Made by a program: the position numbers and the translations under genes
Part shown: positions 3,418 to 16,357 of the stretch, piece by piece
How the letters are laid out: every line of letters starts with the position of its first letter
Position numbering within the stretch: the stretch's first letter is position 1
The notes under the pieces: generated by a model
The model's input: the letters and a program-made list of their open reading frames with translations, nothing else
What the model was told of the DNA's origin: nothing
Database searches by the model: none
From: an uncultured Rikenellaceae bacterium
GTDB taxonomy: Bacteria > Bacteroidota > Bacteroidia > Bacteroidales > VadinHA17
NCBI GenBank assembly: GCA_964637415.1
Contig: CAZWUB010000001.1
Location: 566-64,565, forward strand
Direction: 5' to 3'
DNA: 64,000 bases

Positions 3418-3425
3418 TAAATTTG
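3418..3425 (+). promoter_or_regulatory. Candidate Bacteroidota -7 promoter element (TAnnTTTG) for the seven-gene operon
   Basis: TAAATTTG at 3418-3425 matches the Bacteroides sigma-AB -7 consensus TAnnTTTG. It lies about 37 nt upstream of the ATG at 3462 and overlaps the TTG start proposed by the ORF track, which argues for the ATG start. Confidence 0.35.
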
Positions 3426-3461
3426 CCTGTGTTATTGATTATATTTAAAAATTCAGCTCTT

Positions 3462-4769
3462 ATGATACCGCGTGTCACTTCCTGTCTTATCTCAGTTCTT
3501 ATCGCCTTTTTAATAATTTCGGGATGTAACAGCCGCAGTGCCAGAAATCCTGCAGGTTCCGCAAAACCCGGAACTGTTCAGAAGGAGGCAGAAGTAGTTG
3601 ATAAAGAAGAAGCTCCGGCTCTTGAAAAAGTAATATTCTTCATAGAGAACTCAGGCAGTATGTTTGGTTATGTAAACAGGGCCAATGAGTTCAAGAATTC
3701 ACTTGTGGGCCTTGCCTACCTTCCCGAATTTGATAAAGCATCAAAGAGCTTCTACTTCATAAACGGGAAATCCGACCAGTCAAAAAAATCAGATATCAGA
3801 ATAAACTATGTTGGAAATGATCCGGAAACCCTTAAGAATAATCTTGACCCGGTCTCATTCAATAAAGGTGATGTGAGATACAGTGATCTGAATGAGATGT
3901 TCAGGATCTCTCTCGATTCTGCAAAGGGGAACCAGGTTTCTGTCCTTGTCTCAGACTGTATATATGATGTGGGAGCTGAAAAGGATCCGCTTACATCATT
4001 GAATATCGAGATACATAAAACCCAGCAGGCTTTCCGTAACAGACTTGATAAAGAAGATATACAGACCCTTATAATTAAGGCATTATCAAAATTTGATGGT
4101 GACTATTTTTATGCATCTAAACGTGGATCAGTCAAAATATCAGATGAATACAGGCCTTTCTATATAATATTCTTTGGCAGGACGGAGTTCCTGAATGAAC
4201 TGCTTACCGAAAATAGCATTGGAAGCAAGATTGAAACTGAATTCGAAATTGCCCGTTTCTTTGTTAATGAGGAAAGAAATATCCCTTATCAGGTAGCCCC
4301 TTCCGTAAAACGTATAGGAAGTTTTAAGCTTGATTTTAAAGACAATTTACATCTGAATGATGCTGTGCCTCTCAAAGGAAAATTCCAGTTCACAATAGCA
4401 GCTGATTTCAGCTCACTTCCATTTTCTGATAACTATTATGCATCAGTTAATAATTATGAGTGTCTTTCTTCAAACTTCAGTGTGAGTGAAGTTGAAAAAA
4501 TATCAAAAAAAATACCGGGTATTGAAGGAACTCATCTGATCACGCTTTCAACAGATAAAAATCCTCTTGGGGAACTGGAGCTTGTATTGAAAAATTCAAT
4601 ACCTGAATGGATTATGGAAACTGATACTGATACTGAAGATTTAATTGACAGCAATCATACGTATGGATTCAGTTCACTTACTGATGCGATAAGCGAAGCA
4701 TACGCGTTTGAGAATAATAAGCAGGCAGGCCGGTACCCTGCTGTGTTCAGGATAAGAATATCAAATTAA
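3462..4769 (+). CDS. Lipoprotein with a vWA-like domain carrying a variant MIDAS (operon gene 1)
   Basis: Lipobox LIISGC, with Cys at 3525-3527. The motifs FFIENSGSM (3645-3659, DxSxS with E replacing D), RYSDLNEMF about 80 aa later, and VSVLVSDCIYD about 100 aa later follow vWA beta1/MIDAS spacing. Confidence 0.55.
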   Translation: MIPRVTSCLISVLIAFLIISGCNSRSARNPAGSAKPGTVQKEAEVVDKEEAPALEKVIFFIENSGSMFGYVNRANEFKNSLVGLAYLPEFDKASKSFYFINGKSDQSKKSDIRINYVGNDPETLKNNLDPVSFNKGDVRYSDLNEMFRISLDSAKGNQVSVLVSDCIYDVGAEKDPLTSLNIEIHKTQQAFRNRLDKEDIQTLIIKALSKFDGDYFYASKRGSVKISDEYRPFYIIFFGRTEFLNELLTENSIGSKIETEFEIARFFVNEERNIPYQVAPSVKRIGSFKLDFKDNLHLNDAVPLKGKFQFTIAADFSSLPFSDNYYASVNNYECLSSNFSVSEVEKISKKIPGIEGTHLITLSTDKNPLGELELVLKNSIPEWIMETDTDTEDLIDSNHTYGFSSLTDAISEAYAFENNKQAGRYPAVFRIRISN

Positions 4770-4775
4770 AATAAT

Positions 4776-5225
4776 ATGGGCAAATTCTTTGGTTCAATCT
4801 ATGATGGTATATTTAACATATATCACGAGTCATACCACGAGATCTTTCAGCATCTTTATGATAACGGAGGTTATACAAGGATGGGACTGGCATTTCTGCT
4901 GATACCTCTGACCGGATGGATCCTTTTCTATTTTCTCTGGAAATATCCTTACAGTAAAATATGGCACTGGCTGATCTGGACAGCAGTGATGGTACTCATC
5001 GTGGCGCTTGTTACAAACGGAATAGCAAATTCTGAAATATTCGGTTCAGGCAATCAGACATTGAATGATTTACTTGCCGATACAAGTACCGGTTATGCAG
5101 AATATGCCGGATCGCTGCCTGTAAAATATGTACTTACAAACAGCCTGCTTGCACTTATCCTCAGTTGCATTTATAGCCTGCTGATGAAGCAGTTCAGTAA
5201 AATTCATGTCCATTTACCATTTTAA
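4776..5225 (+). CDS. Small multi-pass inner-membrane protein, no recognisable family (operon gene 2)
   Basis: 149-aa ORF with three hydrophobic helices (LAFLLIPLTGWILFYFLW, WLIWTAVMVLIVALV, LTNSLLALILSCIYSLL). It starts 6 nt after gene 1. Confidence 0.6.
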   Translation: MGKFFGSIYDGIFNIYHESYHEIFQHLYDNGGYTRMGLAFLLIPLTGWILFYFLWKYPYSKIWHWLIWTAVMVLIVALVTNGIANSEIFGSGNQTLNDLLADTSTGYAEYAGSLPVKYVLTNSLLALILSCIYSLLMKQFSKIHVHLPF

Positions 5226-5236
5226 TTCAGGGAATC

Positions 5237-6721
5237 ATGGCAAGAAAACTATATATTTTCGCTATCGGCGGGACAGGATCAAGAGTATTGAAAGCATTAA
5301 CGATGCTTTTTGCATCGGGTGTTAAGATCGGGAATAATTTTGATACTGTTATTCCGGTAATAATCGACCCGGATACAAGTAACGGCGATCTTAATCGTAC
5401 AAAGGATATATTGCGCTTGTACCAGGAGATAAGGAACCAGGTTGACCAGCCTGATGATTTTTTCTCACAGGAGATAAGAACAATAAATGAAATGACTGTA
5501 AGCTCAGCGCTGGTAAATCCGGAATATTTTCAGTTCAAGCTTAAGGATACAGATAACAATACTTTCAACCAGTATATCGGATTTGACAGTATGAGTGACA
5601 ATATTGAGGAAAAGGACGACAAGAACTTTATAAAATCACTCTTTTCTTCACAGAATCTGAAATCCAATCTTGATGTGGGGTTTAAAGGCAATCCTAATAT
5701 GGGGTCGATAATTCTGAATCAGTTCACAAATTCGGATGACTTTAAGAAATTTGGTCAGACTTTCGGGGATGATGATGCCATCTTCATAATTAATTCAATA
5801 TTTGGCGGAACAGGGGCAGCAGGTTTTCCTTTATTGCTTAAAAACCTCAGGGGAAATAAAAGCATGCCAAGGTATGCAAAGATCAGCGTGGCTCCTGTAG
5901 GCGGAATTACATTTCTTCCATATTTCTCGCTGAACAGAAATGATGAAGTGAATGCAGAATCTTTTGAGGAGAAGGCCAAAATTGCAATAGAATATTATAA
6001 CCGGACAATAATTTCACTCAACCAGATCAATACATTATATTTCATCGGGAACAGGGGAAATACAAACCAGGAGGAATATGCTGTAGGAGGGCAGGAGCAG
6101 AGGAATAAGGCTCATTTCCTTGAACTTGCCGGTGCCCTGGCGATCCTTGATTTCTGTAAGGATGTTGATTCTCATAAATCGGGAACTCAGGTGAAGGAGT
6201 TCGGTATTGAACATGATACTCAGAATATTACATTTACAGATCTTAACATAGGTAATGCCAAACTGCTTTCGCCGCCTCTGACAAAGTTCAGGCTTTATAC
6301 AGAGTATCTCGATAAAGGATTATCAAAATCGCTCAATGTGTCGCGCTGGACAAAAAGTAATATCAGGCTGGTGAGGGGTAATAAACAATCGCTTCTGAAC
6401 AGTAATTATTTCAACAGCGCTGAATATAATACACAGATCCTGCCTTTTAATAATCACTTTACAGAATGGATCAGGGAAATGAAGGAAAACAAGCCGGTTT
6501 TCAGTCCTTTTGAGGAGATTTCTTCCGATGATGCGCTTGAACTTGTAAAGGGACAAACTCCAAAAGGAAATAAAAGCTTTAAAGCTCTCGATATTCAGAA
6601 CTGTTTGCTCACTGACAATATCTCAATCCGGAACAGGGAAAAGAAGCATACAATGCTCATCAAGATGTTTGGAAGATCAACAGAAAAGGTATTATTGAAA
6701 CGAAACCTTGTAATTCGCTGA
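5237..6721 (+). CDS. Divergent tubulin/FtsZ-superfamily GTPase-like protein (operon gene 3)
   Basis: T1-like loop IFAIGGTGSRV (5261-5281). T3-like loop GFKGNPNMGS (5678-5707; compare FtsZ GAGANPEVG). T4 tubulin-signature-like loop SIFGGTGAAGFPLL (5804-5824; compare FtsZ GGGTGTGAAPV). The three occur in the canonical order. Confidence 0.65.
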   Translation: MARKLYIFAIGGTGSRVLKALTMLFASGVKIGNNFDTVIPVIIDPDTSNGDLNRTKDILRLYQEIRNQVDQPDDFFSQEIRTINEMTVSSALVNPEYFQFKLKDTDNNTFNQYIGFDSMSDNIEEKDDKNFIKSLFSSQNLKSNLDVGFKGNPNMGSIILNQFTNSDDFKKFGQTFGDDDAIFIINSIFGGTGAAGFPLLLKNLRGNKSMPRYAKISVAPVGGITFLPYFSLNRNDEVNAESFEEKAKIAIEYYNRTIISLNQINTLYFIGNRGNTNQEEYAVGGQEQRNKAHFLELAGALAILDFCKDVDSHKSGTQVKEFGIEHDTQNITFTDLNIGNAKLLSPPLTKFRLYTEYLDKGLSKSLNVSRWTKSNIRLVRGNKQSLLNSNYFNSAEYNTQILPFNNHFTEWIREMKENKPVFSPFEEISSDDALELVKGQTPKGNKSFKALDIQNCLLTDNISIRNREKKHTMLIKMFGRSTEKVLLKRNLVIR

Positions 6722-6724
6722 ACT

Positions 6725-9700
6725 ATGTCTAAAGTATTCAGAATACATGAGGGACAGGATGGAACCGGTTGGTTCATCAGTAATCCCATTTCAAAAAATC
6801 AGCTCCGGACTGTCAAAACAGAAGGGAAGGATGTTGCTACCTCTATCCCCAGTCCGTTTGCAAGGATCGATCTGGTAAAATCAGCGTTTCGTTGGGTGGC
6901 AGATAATGGTATAAAAGGGACGACTGCCCAGCATAAGCTGGTATCGGATGCACTTGATGTGGCTCAGCTGTTTTTCCTTTACCCGAAGTATAAAGATAAA
7001 TACAGGATCATTTCATGGAAACCGGCTGACCGGTTCTTATCACTTGCCGCTGACTCAAACTCAAAGCATTCCAAGCTTTCTGAAACACTTCAGGTCTATT
7101 GGTCCCAGGATGCGGGCGTATATAATTTCGATAAGGTTAAAAGACTTTATTTTATCCTGAATAATTCAAATCAGATCATAGGAGGGACCTCTCCGGCGAC
7201 ATTGTTCTTTTCCGCACCCGATGCAAAAGAAGCAGCATCAGGCCTTAATATAACATGCGGACATGATGTCCTGTTCGATAATGTGTACACCGGTCTGTCG
7301 GAACGCGATGATAAGTCATTTATCGAATACTTATTCCTTTTATCCAGGCAGCCACATTTTCCCGATCTCTTCCCGGAAGTCTATTCATATATGGCTGAGG
7401 TATTTAATTGTCTGGATACTGAATTGCAGTCAAAGATAGCCTCCCTTGATCCATCTGAACTTGATAGTTATTCTCCCTGTCCGGTGCTTGATAATGAGAT
7501 GAATACATGTGAAGTGCTTGGTATAAAACTTGGTGTCAGGCTTGGTAATCCTGCAGAAATTCAAAAGGAAAGCGATTTTATTCTTAAACCCGGATTGCCT
7601 GTCAAGGGATTTGTGCCGCTGGTCCTGCCAAATGACAGATTTACACATAATTGGGCATACACGTCCGGAAATGTTCTGTGGGATCCGAATAATAAGGTCC
7701 CTTACAGGAATGAGAAATTTTACGGTGCATCGAAACTGCCTGTCCAGGGTGATAATTATCCCTGGCTGACTGCCGGTAATTTCTTTGAAGACAAAATAAT
7801 TGAATTACCCTATACTATCGACGGCAAGAAATTTTCCACCTGCGGGTCGACGAGACATTTTCTTCCTCTTACACCCTTATTCTTTGAGTATTTCAGGTCG
7901 GAAGATGTATCGCAGTACCTGCAGCTTACAACTCTGGCCGGGGGAGGAGTGGAGGCTAAGCTTGTTATCCCTGTGAAAGGAGGAGATGTGGTTCTCAAAA
8001 AATCCTGGCACCGCGAAGATATTATTCCAATGGAAATGCATCTGTCAATATTGCCGTTTATTCATGCCCCGGCTGCTGATCTGGATTATACAATAGGGAT
8101 ACAGGATAAGAGATTCAGCAGGGAAAGGGAATTGTCTGTTGAGTGTTATGAATCGGGGAAGCGCATCATTACAGGTAATCCGGTAATCAGGAAACAGGGG
8201 GATGGCAAAACAATTAAAAGTATCTGTTATAAAACAAAATCTTTTGATGCGATAAGGATAGGAAGCGATCCGGTAAACGGATTTATTGTTCCCATGATGT
8301 ACAGGAGTCAGCCTAACCAGCAGGTTTCATTTGCAATTGATTTTGGTACCACAAACACCCATATAGAGTATAAATATGGTGTAAATGCCGAAAACACACT
8401 CGACGTTTCATCTGACAAACCAATGTGGCAATCCCTTATAGACAGAACGAGGGGTGAAACAAAAGAAATAGCCGATGATAATAACTATGAACGGGAGCTG
8501 TTCCCCTATGAGTTCAGTCCATTTTCGAAGTATAAATTCCCTTTCAGGACTGCCCTGACATATAATCAGGACATCAGCTTCATAGAACCTGTCGATGTCT
8601 TTTCCCATACAAATAATTTCTTCCTTTTTGAAAAAATACTGAACCCGACATATCTTCAGTTGCAGACGAAGCTTAAATGGAGCAATTATTCAATGCCTGA
8701 GGATAAGATACTGGTGGAAAGTTTTATAGAGGGCTTAATATACATGGTCCTGTATAAGACATTGCTTCTTAACGGCGATCCACGGAAAACAAGAATAACC
8801 TGGTTTTATCCGGTCAGCATGGATGCATTCGAACAGGGTATATTCTTTGAGGTTTGGCAAAAAGCCTATAAGAAAATTTTCAGGGCAGACGGGACAAATA
8901 ATGTAAGGGCAGTGCCTGAAAGTACAGCCCCATATCTTTTTTACCGGACGGAATATCCCGGATTAAGTCTTTCAATAGATATAGGAGGCGGCTCCTCAGA
9001 TATTGCAGTGTTTAAAAATGCCAGCAATTCGCCGGAGTTCATTTCTTCTGTCAAATTTGCCGGAAATGCCATTTTCGGTGACGGCTTTCCGTACGGGGCC
9101 TTTGCCAATTCTTCGGATAATAATGGTTTCGTTAAAGTATACAGGAACAGAATAGAAAATGCAATAAATCAGAGTACACAGAGGTGGGAAATACTTACTG
9201 ATATTCTCAATAAAAGAAAGGACTCGGCTGATTTCAGCAGTTTCTTATTTTCACTCGAGAATGAGAAAGATCTTATATTCAGTTATACCGATTACCTTAA
9301 GCAGGACAGGAAGCTGAAGCTTCCTATACTCTTGTTTTATGGTGCAATAATTTATTATTCCGCAAATCTTCTAATGAAACAGGGGATGAAGGAAGTACCT
9401 CAGAATATACTTTTCAGCGGAACAGCTTCAAAAACTATCAGGATAATTGATACCAAGCCCGGGAATCCAAATATAACCGATCTTTTCAGGTATTTCTTTA
9501 AGAGGATAAATGGTATTGATAAATCACAGATAAGGATAGCCTTGTCGGAAAATCCAAAGGAAATTACATGCAGAGGGGCCCTGAAAGCTGATATGAACGA
9601 AGATCTGGTCAACTGTCCCATTGTGTTCTGGATCGGAGGAAATGATAATTCAGTATGGAGCAAAGCACTGGATAAGAATTCTGATATAGCTATAACGCCT

Positions 9701-10006
9701 TATTACAGGGATCTGGATCGCGATGGGAATAAATCTCTCATAGAAGGTTCAGTGAATCATTTCTTCAATCTGATGGATGAATACTTCATGTCAGTCAATC
9801 TTGAAGCAAATTTCGGGATCGACAATTCGGCCTGGCTGAAATTTAAGGAGATGCGGTCATTAAACATAACTGATTTCCTTGAACAGGGTCTGCAGGCATT
9901 TTATAAATCAGAATCAAAACATATCGAGGAAGCTTTATTCTTTTATCCCCTGATAGGTATTCTGAATAAGCTTGCTTTTGAACTGGCAAATACTCCTGAT
10001 AAATGA
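6725..10006 (+). CDS. 1093-aa protein with an uncharacterised N-terminal half and a C-terminal Hsp70/actin-fold (ASKHA) ATPase-like domain (operon gene 4)
   Basis: Phosphate-1 motif AIDFGTTNTH (8333-8362). Phosphate-2 motif SIDIGGGSSDIAV (8972-9010). Adenosine-like motif ILFSGTASKT (9407-9436), followed by EITCRGALKA. The spacings of about 213 and 145 aa are close to those in DnaK. The ATG lies 3 nt after the gene 3 stop. Confidence 0.6.
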   Translation: MSKVFRIHEGQDGTGWFISNPISKNQLRTVKTEGKDVATSIPSPFARIDLVKSAFRWVADNGIKGTTAQHKLVSDALDVAQLFFLYPKYKDKYRIISWKPADRFLSLAADSNSKHSKLSETLQVYWSQDAGVYNFDKVKRLYFILNNSNQIIGGTSPATLFFSAPDAKEAASGLNITCGHDVLFDNVYTGLSERDDKSFIEYLFLLSRQPHFPDLFPEVYSYMAEVFNCLDTELQSKIASLDPSELDSYSPCPVLDNEMNTCEVLGIKLGVRLGNPAEIQKESDFILKPGLPVKGFVPLVLPNDRFTHNWAYTSGNVLWDPNNKVPYRNEKFYGASKLPVQGDNYPWLTAGNFFEDKIIELPYTIDGKKFSTCGSTRHFLPLTPLFFEYFRSEDVSQYLQLTTLAGGGVEAKLVIPVKGGDVVLKKSWHREDIIPMEMHLSILPFIHAPAADLDYTIGIQDKRFSRERELSVECYESGKRIITGNPVIRKQGDGKTIKSICYKTKSFDAIRIGSDPVNGFIVPMMYRSQPNQQVSFAIDFGTTNTHIEYKYGVNAENTLDVSSDKPMWQSLIDRTRGETKEIADDNNYERELFPYEFSPFSKYKFPFRTALTYNQDISFIEPVDVFSHTNNFFLFEKILNPTYLQLQTKLKWSNYSMPEDKILVESFIEGLIYMVLYKTLLLNGDPRKTRITWFYPVSMDAFEQGIFFEVWQKAYKKIFRADGTNNVRAVPESTAPYLFYRTEYPGLSLSIDIGGGSSDIAVFKNASNSPEFISSVKFAGNAIFGDGFPYGAFANSSDNNGFVKVYRNRIENAINQSTQRWEILTDILNKRKDSADFSSFLFSLENEKDLIFSYTDYLKQDRKLKLPILLFYGAIIYYSANLLMKQGMKEVPQNILFSGTASKTIRIIDTKPGNPNITDLFRYFFKRINGIDKSQIRIALSENPKEITCRGALKADMNEDLVNCPIVFWIGGNDNSVWSKALDKNSDIAITPYYRDLDRDGNKSLIEGSVNHFFNLMDEYFMSVNLEANFGIDNSAWLKFKEMRSLNITDFLEQGLQAFYKSESKHIEEALFFYPLIGILNKLAFELANTPDK

Positions 10007-10779
10007 GAATACCAGTGTTTTTTGGCTTTAATGCCCTGATCCTTCTGACATGGATCTGGGGCTTATCGGGTTTCCTGATGGGTCTTCTTGTGGGTTGCCT
10101 TGCAGTTTTTCTGTATTCCCGGTATAGCATTTATAGTATACTTGATACTGAAAAGAAGAAATACCTGAAGGATCTGGAGAAAGATACAAGGAATAACCCT
10201 TTTCACAGAGAAGTATTTAAATATATAGGTATAGTGGAGATTTTAAAGAAAAGGAAAAATCTTAAACAGGACCAGCTTATTGCCAAGAATAATACAATAG
10301 CCGAATTAATGGTGCAGAATGAGGAATTATTCGATGATATTGAACAATTAAGGAAAAGACTGATCAACCTGAAGATGAACAAGGAGAATCAGGCTTCGGC
10401 CAGTGAAGGATCTTATGTCAGGTCTCATGAACCGGCAGTAAAAGCTGAAAATCCGGCGGATATCTTTTTTACTATTCCGGAAAGCGATGGTAGTTTCAGG
10501 ATAATTAATGCACAGCATACAAAAGGTGTTGACTGTTTTTATAAAATTATCCCTGACAGGAGTGAGCAGAAAGGCGTCCTTCAGTATTTATCGGGCGATT
10601 ATGATTTACGGGCCCTGGAAAATATTGATTATTATTTAAATCCTGTTTGTGAGATACAGAATATTTCAGGCAGGACATTCGCGAAAAGAATAGTAATGAC
10701 TGAATCCGGAAGTGTGATCAGGAGAAATGATACCTGGCAGATTGAAGAAAATGGAAAAGTAAAAGTAAAACTTGTTTGA
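10003..10779 (+). CDS. Membrane-anchored coiled-coil protein with a small C-terminal beta-rich domain (operon gene 5)
   Basis: N-terminal hydrophobic hairpin (VFFGFNALILLTWIWGLSGFLMGLLVGCLAVFLY), then a heptad-like stretch (IAELMVQNEELFDDIEQLRKRLINLKM). The start overlaps the gene 4 stop as ATGA. Confidence 0.55.
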   Translation: MRIPVFFGFNALILLTWIWGLSGFLMGLLVGCLAVFLYSRYSIYSILDTEKKKYLKDLEKDTRNNPFHREVFKYIGIVEILKKRKNLKQDQLIAKNNTIAELMVQNEELFDDIEQLRKRLINLKMNKENQASASEGSYVRSHEPAVKAENPADIFFTIPESDGSFRIINAQHTKGVDCFYKIIPDRSEQKGVLQYLSGDYDLRALENIDYYLNPVCEIQNISGRTFAKRIVMTESGSVIRRNDTWQIEENGKVKVKLV

Positions 10780-12440
10780 TAATGGTCCTTCTTCAGATAG
10801 TCACTGACACATTAAACACTTCTCAGACAGCTGTTCAGTCTGTTAATCCGTGGTTTGTGGCTGAAATTATCCTTATTATCAGCGTCATAATCTGGCAGCT
10901 CTTACTTTCAGGGAAAATCTATCTGAAAATAAAACAGTTGAAGGAAATATTCACATATCCTTTAAAGGTCAGAAGCGGATATATTAAAAAGAAATACCTT
11001 AACAGGAAAGATACTGCAGTAGATGATATTGTATTTATCAGCGATGAGGAAAGCGTAAAAGAGCAAAGCAGTCAGAACGATGATGATTCTGTCAAAATAG
11101 CAATAACTGAAGCCTATGGCTCAGAAACAATTCTGAGGATAAGAGATTATATAAATACCTATCTTCTTAATAATTACGGAGCTGCGGTCAATTTCAGCAT
11201 AATAAAAGATTTCATCGACCGTGAAGCGGACCTTAAAGATGAAGAAATTTCCAATTCATTGCCCACTCCCTTATATTTAGGTCTTGCTTCCACAATGATC
11301 GGTATTATCTGCGGGTTGTTTGCAATGCCTGCCCTGGGCGGAGGACAGTTTTCACAAGGCATAGATGCCCTGATAAATGGTGTCAAGCTGGCAATGCTGG
11401 GAAGCTTAACAGGTCTCTTATGTACCACAATCCTGACTTCATTTCTTTATAAGAAGGCAAGAAAGTCGTTGCTTGAAGATAAGAATAAACAGATATCCTA
11501 TCTGCAGGCCTGGTTGCTTCCCGAACTTATAAAAGCTGAAGATACAGGAGTGTCGGGACTAAAAGCAAGTCTCGACAGGTTTGCAAGGCTTGCCGGCGGT
11601 ATTTCTGACAATATCCTCAAAGCCTCAGATCAGACGGGCCATAATATCCTGTTGCAACAGGATGTGATCAGACAGGTGGGAGATCTGGATATCCTGAAAA
11701 TCTCAGAAGCAAACCTTGACCTGTTCAGGAGGCTTGAGGAGAATATGGCTTCATTCGGGAAATTCTCTGAATATATTTCACTGATGAGTCAGATCTCAGA
11801 CAACCTTAAGGAATTTGCAGGCCGGACCAGGAATATAGATCAGATAGTTAATCAGATAGACCTCTCGCTTAAAGATAATGCCCGTTTATTACAGTTCCTT
11901 ACATCCCATTTTGAAAAGATTGAACAGGCAGGACTGAATTCCCTGAAGGCTGTGGATATGGCCGACCTTAGTTTCGCTGATGCGATTGATAAGCTTGAAA
12001 AGGAAATAAGTAACAGGCAGAAGGTTCTGAATAATGCTGCTGCAGATGCTGACGGACATGCCAGAGAGGCAATCGGAACTTTACACGAAGAAGTGGATAA
12101 AAGGATTGCCTTGTTGAATAAAAGTGTGGATGATGCCTTTCCAAGGTTTAACCACCTTGATCAGCTTGAACGTCTTCAGGGTATACAGGAGGCCATTTCA
12201 TCAGGCAATGAAGGCATAAATACCCTGATAATGGCTGTTAATAATCTTAATAGTTCTCTTTCAAACAACAGTATTCTGCACAAGCTCGATTCGATTGAAG
12301 ATCATTTGAGTAAAAGAAGGACCAGACCGGAACAGTCTTCGGTTAAGCCGGAACCCGATGTAAAGAACCGGATAATAAGGATCTGGACCAGAGTCCAGAA
12401 ACAGGTAAAGCCTTACTTCAGGATAAGAAAGCGGAAATAA
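10776..12440 (+). CDS. MotA/TolQ/ExbB-family channel-like protein with a long helical cytoplasmic tail, ZorA-like architecture (operon gene 6)
   Basis: One N-terminal TM helix. The TM pair at 11262-11450 (PLYLGLASTMIGIICGLF ... GIDALINGVKLAMLGSLTGLLCTTILTSFLY) resembles the conserved MotA/ExbB helices. A charged helical tail of about 330 aa follows and ends in the basic stretch RIIRIWTRVQKQVKPYFRIRKRK. The start is either TTG at 10776 (overlap TTGA) or ATG at 10782. Confidence 0.6.
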   Translation: MIMVLLQIVTDTLNTSQTAVQSVNPWFVAEIILIISVIIWQLLLSGKIYLKIKQLKEIFTYPLKVRSGYIKKKYLNRKDTAVDDIVFISDEESVKEQSSQNDDDSVKIAITEAYGSETILRIRDYINTYLLNNYGAAVNFSIIKDFIDREADLKDEEISNSLPTPLYLGLASTMIGIICGLFAMPALGGGQFSQGIDALINGVKLAMLGSLTGLLCTTILTSFLYKKARKSLLEDKNKQISYLQAWLLPELIKAEDTGVSGLKASLDRFARLAGGISDNILKASDQTGHNILLQQDVIRQVGDLDILKISEANLDLFRRLEENMASFGKFSEYISLMSQISDNLKEFAGRTRNIDQIVNQIDLSLKDNARLLQFLTSHFEKIEQAGLNSLKAVDMADLSFADAIDKLEKEISNRQKVLNNAAADADGHAREAIGTLHEEVDKRIALLNKSVDDAFPRFNHLDQLERLQGIQEAISSGNEGINTLIMAVNNLNSSLSNNSILHKLDSIEDHLSKRRTRPEQSSVKPEPDVKNRIIRIWTRVQKQVKPYFRIRKRK

Positions 12441-12442
12441 TC

Positions 12443-13111
12443 ATGAAGAAGAATAATATTTTCTGGATTGGTTATTCTGATTTAATGACAAGCATGTTCT
12501 TCATAATGCTTGTTCTTTTTGTGGTGGCTATCGGATACCTGCTTGTAAAAAATGATGAGAACAGTGAGCTGATCGGTGAGCTGACTGTAAGGGAACAGGG
12601 TCTTATTCAGGAAACCGAAAGGCTCCAGAAGCTTCTGAATCTTGAAGAACAATTTGAGCCACTGATCAGCGACAGCAGCTTTTATTACCTTCCTGACTGT
12701 AAGAAATTCATTGTAAAAGACCTTATGGGGATAGAGATATTTGATCCCAACCAGGTGAAGATCAAGAGAGAGTATATTCAGCGTACGATAGCGGTGGGGA
12801 AGAAAATAGACCGCTTTCTTGCTGATTTAAGCCGCAGTAATAAGGGTTTTTCATATCTGCTTGTCATTGAAGGTAATATGGCCAATGATTATCGTCATTC
12901 AAAACCGCCCGACAGGCCGGATTTTTATATCAGAAGCTATTCAAGAGCTCTTGCTGTATATAACCTCTGGCTAAGTGAAGGAATCAATTTCAGGAAATAT
13001 GATGTTGAAGTGATGATCTGTGGCAGCGGTCTTAACGGTCTGTGCCGCGATCCTGTCGAAGAGAACAATAAACGGTTCTCAATTCAGATAATTCCTAAAG
13101 TTTCGAAATAA
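12443..13111 (+). CDS. MotB/ZorB-like protein with a single TM helix carrying the conserved Asp and a C-terminal OmpA-like domain (operon gene 7)
   Basis: N-terminus IFWIGYSDLMTSMFFIMLVLFVV matches the MotB W..YADxMT pattern, with Asp13 at 12479-12481. The C-terminus has an OmpA_C-like pattern (LLVIEGNMAND ... RSYSRALAVYNLWL ... ICGSGLNG ... NNKRFSIQI). It starts 2 nt after gene 6. Confidence 0.7.
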   Translation: MKKNNIFWIGYSDLMTSMFFIMLVLFVVAIGYLLVKNDENSELIGELTVREQGLIQETERLQKLLNLEEQFEPLISDSSFYYLPDCKKFIVKDLMGIEIFDPNQVKIKREYIQRTIAVGKKIDRFLADLSRSNKGFSYLLVIEGNMANDYRHSKPPDRPDFYIRSYSRALAVYNLWLSEGINFRKYDVEVMICGSGLNGLCRDPVEENNKRFSIQIIPKVSK

Positions 13112-14640: not shown

Positions 14641-15153
14641 TTATGTTTCTATAAAAAATTCATCAAGTGTATTATATGGGAGGATACTGCCTTTCGATTT
14701 TACTTTATAAATAAAAAAATCACATTCCTCTTTGCTGAGTAATCCCTGTCTGTAACCTTCTGCAAGGAAATCCATTGTTGTATAATATTTTATGTTGTAT
14801 TTTTTACAATATTCCAAAATATCATGAATATTACTGCTCCCGATAATGTCTTTATGATACCTGCAGTAGGCGAGACATGCACTTTCTCCTTTTCCGAATT
14901 GTTTTACAAGCCTGGCAAATTCCTTAATAACTTCATTGTCATCGTCAAAGGTAATTTCTTTGAAAAGTCTGAAATTAATCAGATTTTCATAGTATTGCCT
15001 GAGACTTTTTCTTTTTTCAAGCTCATCAAGTACTACATCCAGAATTACTTTCTCTTCTTTGAAGATTTTTGGGAGCAAAAATATTGAATCACCTTTGCAA
15101 AAGTGAATTATAACATCAGCATCAAGCAGTATTTTGCAGTCACTTTTCCTCAT
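14641..15153 (-). CDS. PIN-like (DUF4411-type?) putative nuclease; third gene of the XRE/ImmA module
   Basis: 170 aa. N-terminal ILLDADVIIHF, then LDELE, GESACLAYC and SSNIHD give an acidic-residue pattern like a PIN fold. It overlaps the ImmA gene by 14 nt. Low GC. Confidence 0.4.
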   Translation of the reverse strand: MRKSDCKILLDADVIIHFCKGDSIFLLPKIFKEEKVILDVVLDELEKRKSLRQYYENLINFRLFKEITFDDDNEVIKEFARLVKQFGKGESACLAYCRYHKDIIGSSNIHDILEYCKKYNIKYYTTMDFLAEGYRQGLLSKEECDFFIYKVKSKGSILPYNTLDEFFIET

Positions 15154-15847
15154 ATGAAAAAGCGTCCATTAATTCTGCAAAATGTGCTTCGGATATTTTA
15201 CCTTTTTCGTAAAGATTATTTGCCAGTATTCCGTAATCGCTGATCATGAATCCATAATTGGCAGGAAGATACAAGGATGTATCGAATCCAAGGCGTTTGG
15301 CAGTAGAAGTTACATCACTTATGCCGGACTCAATGAAATCAGTATTGATAAGACCAAAATCCCTTAATCTGAAAAGCATTGCCTGATGTGAAACCCTGAA
15401 TAACTGTTCTGCCTTAAGGATTGTTCCAAAGGATACTTTATTGATCCCAACCTCTTCAGGTGGGATTATTTCGAGTATTCCTGTCTCCGGCATTAGCAGA
15501 TTTGCAGAAAAAAGATCTGCATGATATTCAGCTGTGGCCTTTTTATTAAAAGCACCGGTATTGCAGATATGGGTTTCAAAATTATCCTGTATAAACAGAT
15601 GATATAGTTCATGACCAATTGTGAAGTTCTGTCTCCCGAGGGAGTGATTGCTGTTAATCAGTATAAATTTCTCACGGCCCGTTTTAATTGCCATGCCTGA
15701 AAAGAATTCTGATAATGGTCTGAAAAGCGTAAGAATATTTAGTTTAAGCAACAGACTATGAGTGTTTATAGGTTCAGATTGTGTTAGTCCCGCTTTATCT
15801 CTGAATCCTGCAACAGCTTTTTTGATGATTATTTCGCTTCTATTCAC
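15140..15847 (-). CDS. ImmA/IrrE-family (COG2856) zinc metallopeptidase
   Basis: 235 aa with the HExxH motif IGHELYHLF (15599-15613). It overlaps the XRE gene by 8 nt, which is the classic XRE plus ImmA arrangement. Confidence 0.75.
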   Translation of the reverse strand: MNRSEIIIKKAVAGFRDKAGLTQSEPINTHSLLLKLNILTLFRPLSEFFSGMAIKTGREKFILINSNHSLGRQNFTIGHELYHLFIQDNFETHICNTGAFNKKATAEYHADLFSANLLMPETGILEIIPPEEVGINKVSFGTILKAEQLFRVSHQAMLFRLRDFGLINTDFIESGISDVTSTAKRLGFDTSLYLPANYGFMISDYGILANNLYEKGKISEAHFAELMDAFSYEEK

Positions 15848-16166
15848 CCGACAGAGCTTTTAATTTAAGATAATTCCTTATTATTTGTTTGAATGCAGCC
15901 ACCTGGATAAGGTCTTCATCGGAAGAATTAATCGATCTGAAAGAGGTAAACAATCTCATCTCTTCGGGATTTTCTTCCAGAAGCTGTTCGATTTCAACAT
16001 TAAAAAGATTTGCGAACAGCTCAAGGAATTTTACCGGAACTGGTCTGGTTCCGTTTTCGTAGTAGCTTATAGATTCCCTAGAGATACCGGTAACCAGAGA
16101 AACCTGTTCTTGTGTCAATTCTTGTTTTTCCCTTAAAGATTTGATATTCTTGCCTATAACTAACAT
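15840..16166 (-). CDS. XRE-family helix-turn-helix transcriptional regulator
   Basis: 108 aa. IKSLREKQELTQEQVSLVTGISRESISYYENG is a canonical Cro/C1-type HTH. Confidence 0.85.
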   Translation of the reverse strand: MLVIGKNIKSLREKQELTQEQVSLVTGISRESISYYENGTRPVPVKFLELFANLFNVEIEQLLEENPEEMRLFTSFRSINSSDEDLIQVAAFKQIIRNYLKLKALSGE

Positions 16167-16233: not shown

Positions 16234-16357
16234 TTTCAATATTTATGAAAGAAAATTTGGACCTGGGCAGTAGATTAATGCTACAATTATTATCAAGTGT
16301 TAAACTGGTAGTGTTTAAGTATATTTGCAATTATTTAATTTCTTAATTGTTTTATCA

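What the first reader, a model, noticed from the sequence alone, without database searches (positions are those of the whole stretch)
10776..13111. ZorA/ZorB-like stator pair: a MotA-family channel with a long helical tail plus a MotB/OmpA protein that keeps the proton-relay Asp
**Gene 6.** It has one N-terminal TM helix and a TM hairpin whose sequence (GLASTMIGIICGLF ... ALINGVKLAMLGSLTGLL) resembles the conserved MotA/ExbB/TolQ helices. A helical tail of about 330 aa, rich in heptad-like repeats, follows and ends in a strongly basic segment.

**Gene 7.** It begins IFWIGYSDLMTSMFF, which matches the MotB plug/TM pattern W..YADxMT with the invariant Asp at 12479-12481. It ends in an OmpA-like peptidoglycan-binding fold whose binding residues look degenerate (IEGNMAND in place of GHTD).

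**Interpretation.** As I recall, a long cytoplasmic tail on the MotA-like subunit is the hallmark that distinguishes the Zorya ZorA protein from flagellar MotA. Here, however, the partner genes are entirely different from known Zorya types.
Basis: partly seen in the sequence, partly recalled or inferred. Interest (0 to 1): 0.8.

Follow-up and report, generated by a model that had tools for sequence, protein, structure and literature searches.

The report
Zorya-like motor pair with tubulin/actin partners
Two adjacent genes encode a distant relative of the ZorA/ZorB ion-driven membrane motor of the Zorya anti-phage system, and in Bacteroidota this pair almost always sits in one seven-gene operon with a tubulin-like GTPase and a giant actin/Hsp70-fold protein, a combination I found described nowhere.

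Summary

- **Gene 6** (probable start ATG 10782, to 12440) has three transmembrane (TM) helices, a MotA/ExbB/ZorA-type TM2-TM3 hairpin, and a ~330-residue all-helical tail ending in a basic tip.
- **Gene 7** (12443-13111) has the FWxxYxDLMT motif. Asp13 (12479-12481) aligns with E. coli ZorB Asp26. It ends in an OmpA-like domain.
- **Closest relatives.** Among solved structures and defence-system models these are ZorA and ZorB. All scores fall far below curated Zorya thresholds. No ZorC, D, E, F or G is present.
- **Linkage.** The pair is almost always linked to five upstream genes: a lipoprotein, a small membrane protein, a tubulin/FtsZ-like GTPase, a 1093-residue protein with an actin/Hsp70 fold, and a TM/coiled-coil protein. 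All 32 genome loci with all seven genes detected keep this order. Of 52 metagenome loci seeded from gene 4, 49 carry both genes 6 and 7.
- **Other signs.** The tubulin-like and actin-fold genes are fused in some lineages. Secreted-type nucleases and an Asp protease are occasional add-ons. A sister clade pairs the motor with a P-loop NTPase instead.

Best reading: a new Zorya-like variant, a peptidoglycan-anchored ion-driven 5:2 motor signalling through its tail to a cytoskeletal-type NTPase module. It is probably a defence system, but an envelope-remodelling role is not excluded. I found no literature on it.

The parts
3423..4769 (+). Gene 1: lipoprotein-like envelope protein (ORF opens at TTG 3423; ATG at 3462 would give the 435 aa seen in orthologues). 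Signal peptide plus Cys; conserved ENSGS motif.
   Evidence: Conserved as the first gene of the cassette. No Pfam, PDB or PADLOC family hit, and vWA is not detected.
4776..5225 (+). Gene 2: small (149 aa) multi-pass membrane protein.
   Evidence: Conserved in position. No significant family hit.
5237..6721 (+). Gene 3: divergent tubulin/FtsZ-superfamily GTPase with invariant GIGGTGS and SIFGGTGAAG loops.
   Evidence: 26 of 26 orthologues hit Pfam Tubulin (best 1.6e-7) and 23 of 26 hit Tubulin_2 (best 6.4e-6). It is the most conserved gene of the cassette, median 67% identity.
6725..10006 (+). Gene 4: 1093-aa protein. The N-terminal half is of unknown fold. The C-terminal half (about residues 530-1090) is an actin/Hsp70 (ASKHA) ATPase fold with invariant DFGTTNTH and DIGGGSSD motifs.
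   Evidence: AlphaFold2 model pLDDT 84, pTM 0.73. Foldseek gives 309 PDB hits at E<=1e-3, led by Hsp70 nucleotide-binding domains, MreB, BeeR and actin. Fused to gene 3 in several lineages.
10003..10779 (+). Gene 5: N-terminal TM segments, a coiled coil and a small C-terminal beta-rich domain. It is the most variable gene in length and sequence.
   Evidence: Absent in the remote variant L149-L151.
10782..12440 (+). Gene 6: ZorA-like A subunit (552 aa; ORF opens at TTG 10776).
   Evidence: PADLOC ZorA hits. Weak Pfam MotA_ExbB hits in 20 of 29 orthologues. Foldseek top hits are ZorA, then TolQ and ExbB.
10848..10904 (+). Gene 6 TM1 (residues 23-41).
   Evidence: Hydropathy; helix 23-54 in the model.
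11271..11444 (+). Gene 6 TM2-TM3 hairpin (residues 164-221), with invariant Thr171 (11292-11294) and Thr215; Thr216 is invariant among close relatives and nearly so in the wider set.
   Evidence: Aligns to the TM2-TM3 hairpin of ZorA in 8vvi_F and 8qyh_A.
11451..12437 (+). Gene 6 cytoplasmic helical tail (residues 224-552). The basic tip is residues 514-552 (12321-12437).
   Evidence: Secondary structure of the model; hydrophobic periodicity and charge count.
12443..13111 (+). Gene 7: ZorB-like B subunit (222 aa). FWIGYSDLMT motif with Asp13 at 12479-12481; TM about residues 14-35; helical linker; OmpA-like domain about residues 75-222 with invariant Arg168 (12944-12946).
   Evidence: PDB profile hits to ZorB. 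Pfam MotB_plug in 21 of 28 and OmpA in 13 of 28 orthologues. PADLOC ZorB1 at 4.1e-7. Motif table.

Best explanation
Genes 6 and 7 encode a ZorAB-type stator unit.

**The motor.** By homology, five copies of the three-TM gene-6 protein surround two copies of the single-TM gene-7 protein in the inner membrane.
- Asp13 of gene 7 is the ion-accepting residue.
- It faces the conserved Thr171 and Thr215/216 of the gene-6 hairpin.
- The OmpA-like domain of gene 7 holds the complex to the cell wall.
- Ion flow turns the gene-6 ring.
- The ~330-residue helical tail projects roughly 40-45 nm into the cytoplasm if it forms one continuous bundle.

**The system.** The pair is not a free-standing motor. It is the membrane module of a conserved seven-gene Bacteroidota system.
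- The cytoplasmic module is a tubulin/FtsZ-like GTPase (gene 3) physically partnered with a giant actin/Hsp70-fold ATPase (gene 4).
- A TM/coiled-coil protein (gene 5) may act as an adaptor.
- The envelope side holds a lipoprotein (gene 1) and a small membrane protein (gene 2).

**Most likely mode of action, by analogy with Zorya.** An envelope perturbation such as phage entry lets the B subunit engage peptidoglycan and starts ion-driven rotation. The tail and its basic tip pass that signal to the NTPase module, which assembles or is activated locally.

**What is shown:** homology, architecture, invariant residues, obligate gene linkage, and gene 3-4 fusions.

**What is inferred:** the 5:2 stoichiometry, rotation, coupling through the tail, and the biological output.

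**My estimates:**

| Claim | Probability |
|---|---|
| ZorAB-like homologue acting as an ion-conducting stator-type complex | about 0.8 |
| Functionally coupled to genes 3-5 | about 0.75 |
| The system is anti-phage or anti-MGE immunity | about 0.4-0.45 |
For: **Homology of gene 6**
- PADLOC ZorA2 at E=2.4e-8 over residues 118-373. 15 of 23 close relatives hit the ZorA1 model PDLC00602 (other ZorA1/2/3 models are hit too), best 3.5e-13.
- 60 remote representatives give their main PADLOC hits to ZorA models, best 1.7e-12.
- 20 of 29 hit Pfam MotA_ExbB weakly.
- The sister clade carries precomputed PF01618 hits.
- The top sequence-profile PDB hits on the hairpin are ZorA type II and E. coli ZorA.
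- Foldseek ranks 1-4 are E. coli ZorA, followed by TolQ and ExbB.

**Homology of gene 7**
- Profile against PDB: Shewanella ZorB 2.7e-12 (full length), E. coli ZorB 3.9e-7, S. kujiense ZorB 0.014, C. jejuni MotB 0.017.
- Pfam OmpA is hit by 13 of 28 orthologues and MotB_plug by 21 of 28.

**Residues**
- Asp13 is present in 28 of 28 orthologues and aligns with ZorB Asp26. The D26N mutant abolishes Zorya motor function (PMC11946911).
- Arg168 aligns with ZorB Arg159.

**Architecture**
- Three TM helices plus a helical tail, as in ZorA.

**Linkage**
- Genes 1-7 occur in the same order in the 32 genome loci where all seven were detected.
- Seeding from gene 4 instead, 49 of 52 metagenome loci carry genes 6 and 7, and the other 3 carry gene 6. 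This holds down to 26-31% gene-4 identity.
- Genes 3 and 4 are fused into one ORF in several lineages.

**Modularity, as in the Zorya types**
- The same ZorAB-like family is paired with a P-loop NTPase module in L055 and L140.

**Defence flavour**
- SNase or Endonuclease_NS and a retropepsin-like protease lie directly after gene 7 in many loci.
- Type I R-M and Fic genes are adjacent in L059/L060.
- A CapP/HTH cassette and a variable slot lie next to the window's operon.
- Flanks differ between genomes and distribution is patchy: 54 loci from a pattern-limited scan of 185,579 species genomes.
- Genes are fragmented in some copies.
Against: - All hits to curated models are far below trusted cut-offs. 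The window proteins have no Pfam MotA_ExbB or OmpA hit. NCBIfam gives 17.6 and 19.8 bits against cut-offs of 250 and 400.
- The gene-6 model is of low confidence (pLDDT 62.9), and no Foldseek hit has E<1e-3.
- Stoichiometry and rotation could not be modelled.
- In the window's clade the peptidoglycan motif is degenerate (FxxRSxxRA), so wall anchoring is uncertain here.
- The seven core genes contain no recognisable nuclease or other classical effector.
- The accessory nucleases and protease carry lipoprotein signal peptides. They would act in the periplasm, not on cytoplasmic phage DNA.
- Defence-island association was seen in single cases and was not tested statistically.
- Genes 1-5 occur without genes 6/7 in Prevotella sp. 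oral taxon 299, so the NTPase module can exist without the motor.
Confidence: 0.6

Rival explanations
1. The operon is an envelope- or membrane-remodelling machine rather than an immune system. A tubulin-like/actin-fold pair (as FtsZ-FtsA in the divisome) works with a proton-driven 5:2 motor and a wall-binding OmpA-like domain (as TolQR-Pal) plus a lipoprotein. It would shape, constrict or vesiculate the envelope, or build a surface or periplasmic structure. This would be a Bacteroidota counterpart of the vWA/FtsZl1 'membrane remodelling' operons predicted by Makarova and Koonin (2010).
For: - Gene 3 is the most conserved component and keeps the tubulin GTP-binding loops.
- Gene 4 keeps all the ASKHA ATPase motifs.
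- Genes 3 and 4 are fused in places.
- FtsZl1/Tubulin_2 operons with OmpA-domain and membrane proteins are described in PMC2875224.
- The core has no classical effector.
- The accessory proteins are periplasmic lipoproteins.
- The gene order is stable across classes of Bacteroidota.
Against: - The motor pair is closest to the defence motor ZorAB, not to TolQR or ExbBD.
- The system is rare and patchy, its flanks differ, and some copies are decaying.
- Nucleases of two unrelated families recur next to it, and R-M, Fic, CapP and STAND genes are neighbours.
- The vWA domain that defines the FtsZl1 operons was not detected in gene 1.
Confidence: 0.3
2. Genes 6/7 are an ordinary energy transducer of the Ton/Tol, gliding/T9SS or flagellar kind that merely happens to lie next to unrelated genes.
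For: Gene 6 has the three-TM ExbB/TolQ topology, and TolQ and ExbB appear among the Foldseek hits. Bacteroidota rely heavily on TonB-dependent uptake and on GldLM motors (general knowledge).
Against: - The B subunit has a MotB/ZorB-type OmpA domain. No ExbD or TolR chain was matched.
- The 330-residue tail has no counterpart in ExbB, TolQ or MotA.
- No TonB, TolA, Pal, Gld/Por or flagellar gene was detected in the loci whose genes carried Pfam annotation (window, L001, L057-L060, L140-L142).
- Linkage to genes 1-5 is nearly obligate in both directions.
- A phmmer search of 1.84 billion representatives finds a closed family of 894 and does not run into ExbB, TolQ or MotA.
Confidence: 0.03
3. 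The pair is a degenerate stator relic. It would be a static membrane anchor or scaffold for the gene 3/4 module that no longer conducts ions or binds peptidoglycan.
For: The peptidoglycan motif NxxLSxxRA is lost in the window's clade and GHTD is replaced. Scores against the MotA/MotB families are weak.
Against: - Asp13 is invariant in 28 of 28 orthologues. Thr171 and Thr215 (with Thr216 nearly so) and the Gly-rich hairpin are conserved down to about 30% identity. That is not expected for a relic.
- Arg168 and Ser165 of the peptidoglycan-binding helix are invariant.
- 11 of 28 orthologues keep the full motif.
Confidence: 0.07

Closest known systems
Zorya ZorA/ZorB (types I-III; E. coli, Shewanella ANA-3 and S. 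kujiense structures 8QYD, 8VVN, 8VVI)
   Same: - Three-TM A subunit of the MotA/ExbB/TolQ superfamily with a long helical cytoplasmic tail.
- B subunit with FWxSYxDLMT, the conserved Asp (Asp13 aligns with Asp26) and an OmpA-like wall-binding domain.
- Best sequence and fold matches for both proteins.
- The motor pair combines with swappable partner modules.
   Different: - Similarity is weak (E from 1e-7 to 1e-13, far below curated cut-offs).
- The family is separate: 894 representatives.
- The tail is shorter than in type I (about 330 residues against 507).
- The partners are a tubulin-like GTPase, an actin/Hsp70-fold giant, a lipoprotein and membrane proteins instead of ZorC/D, ZorE or ZorF/G.
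- The peptidoglycan motif is degenerate in this clade.
- No function has been tested.
Flagellar stator MotA/MotB (PomA/PomB)
   Same: The same superfamily. The B subunit has a conserved TM Asp and an OmpA-like domain. Weak hits to MotB_plug and to C. jejuni MotB.
   Different: MotA has four TM helices and no long tail. There are no flagellar genes nearby, and Bacteroidota are non-flagellated (general knowledge). The match to MotB is much weaker than the match to ZorB (0.017 against 2.7e-12).
ExbB/ExbD and TolQ/TolR
   Same: Three-TM topology of the A subunit. The conserved Thr in TM2 and the Thr pair in TM3 resemble ExbB/TolQ (own knowledge of TolQ T145/T178 and ExbB T148/T181). Both appear among the Foldseek hits.
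   Different: ExbD and TolR lack the OmpA-type domain. There is no TonB, TolA or Pal partner. ExbB and TolQ have no long tail.
vWA/FtsZl1 (Tubulin_2) operons of Makarova and Koonin 2010 (PMC2875224)
   Same: A divergent tubulin/FtsZ-like GTPase sits in an operon with membrane proteins and, in some genomes, OmpA-domain proteins. Gene 3 hits Tubulin_2 weakly.
   Different: No vWA domain was detected in gene 1. That paper does not mention a MotA-like partner, an actin-fold partner or Bacteroidetes. Membership of gene 3 in FtsZl1 is not established.
FtsZ-FtsA with Tol-Pal (divisome)
   Same: A tubulin-fold GTPase paired with an actin-fold ATPase, together with a 5:2 proton motor and an OmpA-like wall binder.
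   Different: This is an analogy only. There is no orthology, and gene 4 is three times the size of FtsA with an unknown N-terminal half. The genomes carrying this cassette are presumed to have their own divisome as well (not checked).

Membership tests
Zorya ZorAB (as a motor type) | A subunit belongs to the MotA/ExbB/TolQ superfamily. | tested here: met
   PADLOC ZorA models at 2.4e-8 (window) and 3.5e-13 (family). Weak MotA_ExbB hits in 20 of 29 orthologues. Foldseek top hits are ZorA, TolQ and ExbB. Strength is moderate, not strong.
Zorya ZorAB (as a motor type) | A subunit has three TM helices followed by a long alpha-helical cytoplasmic tail. | tested here: met
   TM segments at 23-41, 164-182 and 203-221. 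Helical from 190 to 551. Hydrophobic period 3.4-3.7. Compared with PMC11946911.
Zorya ZorAB (as a motor type) | B subunit has an N-terminal TM helix carrying the conserved ion-binding Asp. | tested here: met
   Asp13 is invariant in 28 of 28 orthologues and aligns with ZorB Asp26.
Zorya ZorAB (as a motor type) | B subunit has a C-terminal OmpA-like peptidoglycan-binding domain with the binding residues (ZorB Y151, N152, L155, R159). | tested here: inconclusive
   The fold and family are met: ZorB full-length match at 2.7e-12, and 13 of 28 orthologues hit Pfam OmpA. Arg168 is kept, but the Asn and Leu equivalents are lost in the window's clade. 11 of 28 orthologues keep NxxLSxxRA.
Zorya ZorAB (as a motor type) | A5B2 stoichiometry, a pentameric tail bundle and ion-driven rotation. 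| not testable with these tools
   Only monomer prediction was available. It needs AlphaFold-Multimer or AlphaFold3, or cryo-EM.
Zorya defence system types I, II, III | Presence of the type-specific partners (ZorC+ZorD, ZorE, or ZorF+ZorG). | tested here: not met
   Genes 1-5 give no Zor hit in PADLOC or NCBIfam. The partners are tubulin-like and actin-fold proteins.
Zorya defence system types I, II, III | Scores above the curated ZorA and ZorB model cut-offs. | tested here: not met
   NCBIfam ZorA_3 gives 17.6 bits against a cut-off of 250. ZorB1 gives 19.8 bits against 400.
Zorya defence system types I, II, III | Protection against phage. | not testable with these tools
   The only support is context: nucleases, R-M/Fic, CapP and STAND neighbours, and patchy distribution.
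Flagellar MotAB | Four-TM MotA and a flagellar gene context. | tested here: not met
   Three TM helices. No flagellar genes appear in any locus.
ExbBD / TolQR | B subunit of the ExbD/TolR type and a TonB or TolA partner. | tested here: not met
   The B subunit is MotB/ZorB-type with an OmpA domain. No TonB or TolA is in the neighbourhoods.
vWA/FtsZl1 operons (PMC2875224) | An FtsZl1 (Tubulin_2) GTPase together with a vWA-domain protein. | tested here: inconclusive
   23 of 26 gene-3 orthologues hit Tubulin_2, but weakly (best 6.4e-6). The window protein scores 14.8 bits against a cut-off of 27. No vWA hit for gene 1 by Pfam or PDB profile. The fold of gene 1 was not predicted.

The most novel reading that the evidence does not exclude
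This is a previously undescribed class of envelope-spanning machine. An ion-driven ZorAB-type rotary motor is hard-wired through its long tail to a tubulin-like GTPase and an actin/Hsp70-fold ATPase that work as one unit and are fused in some lineages. It would be the first case of a 5:2 motor controlling, or being controlled by, a prokaryotic cytoskeletal-type polymer system. Its use could be a new form of immunity or a new kind of envelope remodelling.
Probability: 0.3. Interest if true: 0.9.

Novelty: new variant of a known kind. Interest (0 to 1): 0.78.

Why it matters
- **Extends a principle.** Zorya showed that a flagellar-stator-like motor can act as an immune sensor whose tail recruits effectors. 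This pair suggests the principle reaches further. A separate ZorAB-like family of about 900 representative clusters, most of those placed taxonomically being in Bacteroidota, is coupled to NTPase modules. The commonest module is a tubulin-like GTPase plus a giant actin-fold ATPase, rather than nucleases or helicases.
- **If it is a defence system,** its effector logic is new.
- **If it is not,** it is a proton-motive-force-driven cytoskeleton-linked envelope machine in a phylum whose cell biology is poorly known.
- **It also gives a concrete lead on the function of divergent FtsZ/tubulin families,** which have lacked a function since 2010.
- **It is testable.** The system occurs in cultured strains (Algoriphagus faecimaris DSM 23095, Polaribacter spp., Geofilum, Thermophagus, and a motor-less version in Prevotella sp. 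oral taxon 299). The point mutants to make are obvious: D13N, T171A, tail-tip deletion, and the GTPase and ATPase loops.

Tried and rejected
- **Single-protein Pfam and NCBIfam scans** gave nothing above threshold for any of the seven genes. Family-wide scans were needed.
- **PDB phmmer with gene 6, and a profile search with the full-length gene-6 alignment,** returned only coiled-coil noise. Restricting to the N-terminal 280 residues brought ZorA to the top, but only at E=0.064.
- **Exact look-up of the 554-aa gene-6 product** failed because the start codon was wrong.
- **The idea that gene 1 is a vWA protein** (ENSGS resembling a MIDAS motif), which would place the operon among the vWA/FtsZl1 systems, found no support from Pfam or the PDB profile.
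- **The PADLOC hit of gene 3 to PDC-M02B** (E=0.0011, 40 residues) was treated as noise.
- **The promoter and terminator scan** found no more sites than in shuffled sequence, and Bacteroidota promoters are not covered by it.
- **Phage records** hold no gene-6 relative. The nine IMG/VR contigs with gene 4 look like host DNA next to prophage; in L143 phage-like genes begin about 100 nt after gene 5.
- **Literature searches** for Zorya, ZorAB, tubulin, actin-like, stator and Bacteroidota found no description of this system.
- **Ton/Tol, gliding and flagellar readings** were rejected on context and on the type of B subunit.

Full report
**1. What is in the sequence**

The region 3423-13111 carries seven tightly packed genes on the + strand.
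- Gaps between genes run from 2 to 11 nt, and genes 4/5 overlap by 4 nt (genes 5/6 too, if gene 6 is read from its TTG at 10776).
- The gene-6 ORF opens at TTG 10776. Orthologues are 552 aa and start MV(L)LQ, and the 554-aa product is not on record. The likely start is ATG 10782, 2 nt after the gene-5 stop.
- Gene 7 starts at 12443.
- A promoter/terminator scan found no more sites than in shuffled sequence.
- There is only one copy of the system in the window.

**2. Gene 6**

- Family-averaged hydropathy gives three TM segments: residues 23-41, 164-182 and 203-221.
- Lys/Arg-rich stretches follow TM1 and TM3. This puts the ~115-residue loop and the C-terminal region in the cytoplasm.
- An AlphaFold2 monomer model is of low confidence (mean pLDDT 62.9). 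It agrees on the layout and shows TM3 continuing into an almost wholly helical region up to residue 551.
- Tail hydrophobicity has a period of 3.4-3.7 residues. The last 39 residues carry 13 K/R against 3 D/E.
- The window protein has no Pfam MotA_ExbB hit. It does hit the PADLOC ZorA2 model at E=2.4e-8 over residues 118-373, and ZorA1 and NCBIfam ZorA_3 models on the hairpin.
- Among 23 close relatives, 15 hit the ZorA1 model PDLC00602 and others hit further ZorA1/2/3 models, best 3.5e-13.
- 20 of 29 N-terminal regions hit MotA_ExbB weakly.
- A profile of the N-terminal 280 residues puts ZorA type II (8vvi_F, E=0.064) and E. coli ZorA first among PDB sequences, aligned on the TM2-TM3 hairpin.
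- Foldseek with the model ranks E. coli ZorA chains 1-4 (E=2.7e-3). TolQ, Shewanella ZorA and ExbB follow.
- No single result is strong. All point the same way.
- Scanning 1.84 billion representatives with residues 117-278 gives 894 hits at E<=1e-3 and 694 at E<=1e-10. The family is closed and does not run into the large ExbB, TolQ or MotA families.
- 60 of its remote members hit mainly ZorA models in PADLOC, best 1.7e-12; a few also gave weak hits to coiled-coil or other models such as LmuB, JetC and DruC.
- Thr171 in TM2 and Thr215 in TM3 are invariant across the family, and Thr216 nearly so.

**3. Gene 7**

- A profile of 28 orthologues hits the following chains (entries identified through PMC11890865):

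| PDB chain | Protein | E-value |
|---|---|---|
| 8vvn_B | Shewanella ANA-3 type I ZorB (full length) | 2.7e-12 |
| 8qyd_F | E. coli ZorB | 3.9e-7 |
| 8vvi_A | S. kujiense type II ZorB | 0.014 |
| 6ykp_F | C. jejuni MotB | 0.017 |

- 21 of 28 orthologues hit Pfam MotB_plug and 13 of 28 hit OmpA, best 4e-7.
- Asp13 is invariant and aligns with ZorB Asp26. The D26N mutant abolishes motor-dependent effector recruitment (PMC11946911).
- In the OmpA-like domain, Ser165 and Arg168 are invariant, and Arg168 aligns with ZorB Arg159.
- The NxxLSxxRA motif is intact in only 11 of 28 orthologues. In the window's clade it reads FxxRSxxRA, and EGNMAN replaces GHTD.
Wall binding here is uncertain.

**4. The partners**

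- **Gene 3** is a divergent tubulin/FtsZ-superfamily GTPase. All 26 orthologues hit Pfam Tubulin (best 1.6e-7) and 23 hit Tubulin_2. The GIGGTGS and SIFGGTGAAG loops are invariant.
- **Gene 4** gave a confident model (pLDDT 84, pTM 0.73).
  - Its C-terminal half matches Hsp70 nucleotide-binding domains, MreB, BeeR and actin, with 309 PDB hits at E<=1e-3.
  - The DFGTTNTH and DIGGGSSD phosphate loops are invariant.
  - The N-terminal ~530 residues remain unassigned.
- **Genes 3 and 4 are fused** into one ORF in several lineages. This argues for a physical partnership.
- **Gene 1** is lipoprotein-like. A suspected vWA domain was not detected.
- **Gene 2** is a small membrane protein.
- **Gene 5** has TM segments, a coiled coil and a small C-terminal domain, and it is the most variable gene.
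- None of genes 1-5 hits a Zorya partner model.

**5. Linkage**

- A genome scan seeded with gene 6 found 54 loci. Almost all are Bacteroidota: Bacteroidales, Prolixibacteraceae, Flavobacteriales, Cytophagales and Saprospiraceae.
- All seven genes are detected, in the same order, in 32 of these loci. Most of the rest are truncated by contig ends or have a diverged gene 2 or 5. One clear exception, L055, is described in section 6.
- Seeding from gene 4 in metagenomes gave 52 loci with at least 4.5 kb downstream. 49 have genes 6 and 7, 3 have gene 6 only, and none lacks both. All 52 loci with enough upstream DNA have genes 1-3.
- The link persists at 26-31% gene-4 identity, including human-gut contigs and a variant without gene 5.
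- Median identity to the window proteins, from the 32 loci with all seven genes:

| Gene | 3 | 7 | 2 | 4 | 6 | 1 | 5 |
|---|---|---|---|---|---|---|---|
| Median % identity | 67 | 58 | 51 | 49 | 45 | 41 | 33 |

- Two cases lack the motor.
  - Prevotella sp. oral taxon 299 has genes 1-5 only.
  - In L143, phage-like genes begin about 100 nt after gene 5.

**6. Modularity and context**

- In L055 and L140 the same ZorAB-like family sits behind a different set of genes: a membrane/coiled-coil protein, a P-loop NTPase, a 405-417-aa TM protein and a small protein. This sister clade carries precomputed MotA_ExbB hits.
- A retropepsin-like Asp protease, an SNase and an Endonuclease_NS recur directly after gene 7. 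The protease and SNase carry lipoprotein signal peptides.
- Some clades add a ~160-aa membrane protein between genes 6 and 7. Some carry two tandem ZorB-like genes.
- Flanks differ between genomes.
- L059/L060 lie next to Fic and type I R-M genes.
- In the window the operon sits between metabolic genes and a PQQ/BamB-like gene. Beyond that is a slot holding a CapP-like peptidase/HTH cassette. The syntenic L057 has MerR plus an nSTAND1-WD40 protein in the same slot.
- Some copies show fragmented genes.

**7. Interpretation**

- The architecture matches the ZorAB hallmark described in PMC11946911 and PMC11890865: a three-TM A subunit, a long helical tail, and a MotB-type B subunit with the Asp and an OmpA-like domain. 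Both proteins are nearer to ZorA and ZorB than to any other solved relative.
- Membership in Zorya types I-III fails on two tested features: curated score cut-offs and partner genes. I therefore file it as a Zorya-like variant and not as Zorya.
- The most likely mechanism is a peptidoglycan-referenced, ion-driven A5B2 motor whose tail couples to the gene 3/4/5 module.
- Whether the output is immunity (my estimate 0.4-0.45) or envelope remodelling (about 0.3) cannot be settled by computation.
- Nuclease and protease add-ons, the neighbours, patchiness and modular partner swapping favour defence. The cytoskeletal nature of the best-conserved genes and the periplasmic address of the add-ons favour remodelling.
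- Ton/Tol, gliding and flagellar roles are excluded by context and by the type of B subunit.

**8. Novelty**

- All database names for these proteins are 'hypothetical protein' or an evidently automatic generic label.
- Full-text searches found no description of the system.
- The nearest published idea is the vWA/FtsZl1 operon of Makarova and Koonin (PMC2875224). It does not mention a MotA-like subunit, an actin-fold partner or Bacteroidetes.

Noticed in passing
window 14641-16166 (- strand) and 16325-18631 (+): A CapH/CapP-like regulatory pair: an M78 peptidase (PADLOC capP, E=5.8e-25) and an HTH_3 repressor. Next to them is a 170-aa ORF with a weak PDC-S70 hit. A 768-aa ORF nearby has no Pfam or PADLOC hit. 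In the syntenic locus L057 the same slot holds MerR plus an nSTAND1-WD40 protein, so this looks like a variable, defence-type hotspot beside the operon.
   Followed up: partly
L018 3185-7873; L019 3965-8656; proteins P0172, P0174, P0178, P0199, P0203; six metagenome loci: The tubulin-like gene 3 and the actin/Hsp70-fold gene 4 are fused into one 1550-1660-aa ORF with no internal stop. A natural tubulin-fold/actin-fold fusion protein is unusual in itself.
   Followed up: partly
L055 5395-12296; L140 4266-11229: A sister system uses the same ZorAB-like family with different partners: a membrane/coiled-coil protein, a P-loop NTPase (GPPxCGKT), a 405-417-aa TM protein and a 189-222-aa protein. An Asp protease (L055) or an Endonuclease_NS (L140) is added.
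   Followed up: partly
L059 11393-12498; L058 12391-13413; L142 10820-11818; also L011, L018, L019, L028, L032, L047, L048: Accessory genes lie directly after gene 7: a retropepsin-like Asp protease and an SNase, which are separate or fused, or an Endonuclease_NS. The protease and SNase have lipoprotein signal peptides, which implies periplasmic action. The window's copy lacks them.
   Followed up: partly
L061 (Prevotella sp. oral taxon 299 F0039, NC_022111.1 616284-637727): A cultured human oral isolate carries genes 1-4 and a short gene-5-like protein without TM segments (gene 4 about 30% identical). It has no ZorA/ZorB-like genes. Downstream are a Zn-ribbon/TM protein and, judged by eye from their translations, MATE-efflux- and RmuC-like genes. 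The region is unannotated in the PLSDB record.
   Followed up: partly
L143 8210-15251: In this IMG/VR contig, phage-like genes on the minus strand (judged by eye: a methyltransferase-like protein and several large unassigned ORFs) begin about 100 nt after gene 5, where genes 6/7 would be expected. This could be a prophage inserted into or next to the operon, or an assembly join.
   Followed up: no
L054 11557-13020; L132; L145, L146, L148: Two tandem ZorB-like genes follow the ZorA-like gene in some lineages. Prolixibacteraceae-type loci instead insert a ~160-aa four-TM protein between genes 6 and 7. L049 inserts a trypsin-like serine protease lipoprotein (judged by eye from its GSSGGP motif).
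   Followed up: partly
window 6725-6860 (gene 4 residues 1-44): The N-terminal ~45 residues of gene 4 are highly conserved (SIPSPFARIDLVKSAF is nearly invariant) but are predicted to be disordered in the monomer (pLDDT below 50). This looks like a docking peptide for a partner.
   Followed up: no
L057 2683-9225; L013; L014: Genes 1, 3 and 4 are split into fragments in some otherwise syntenic copies. This is either pseudogenisation or long-read sequencing errors.
   Followed up: no
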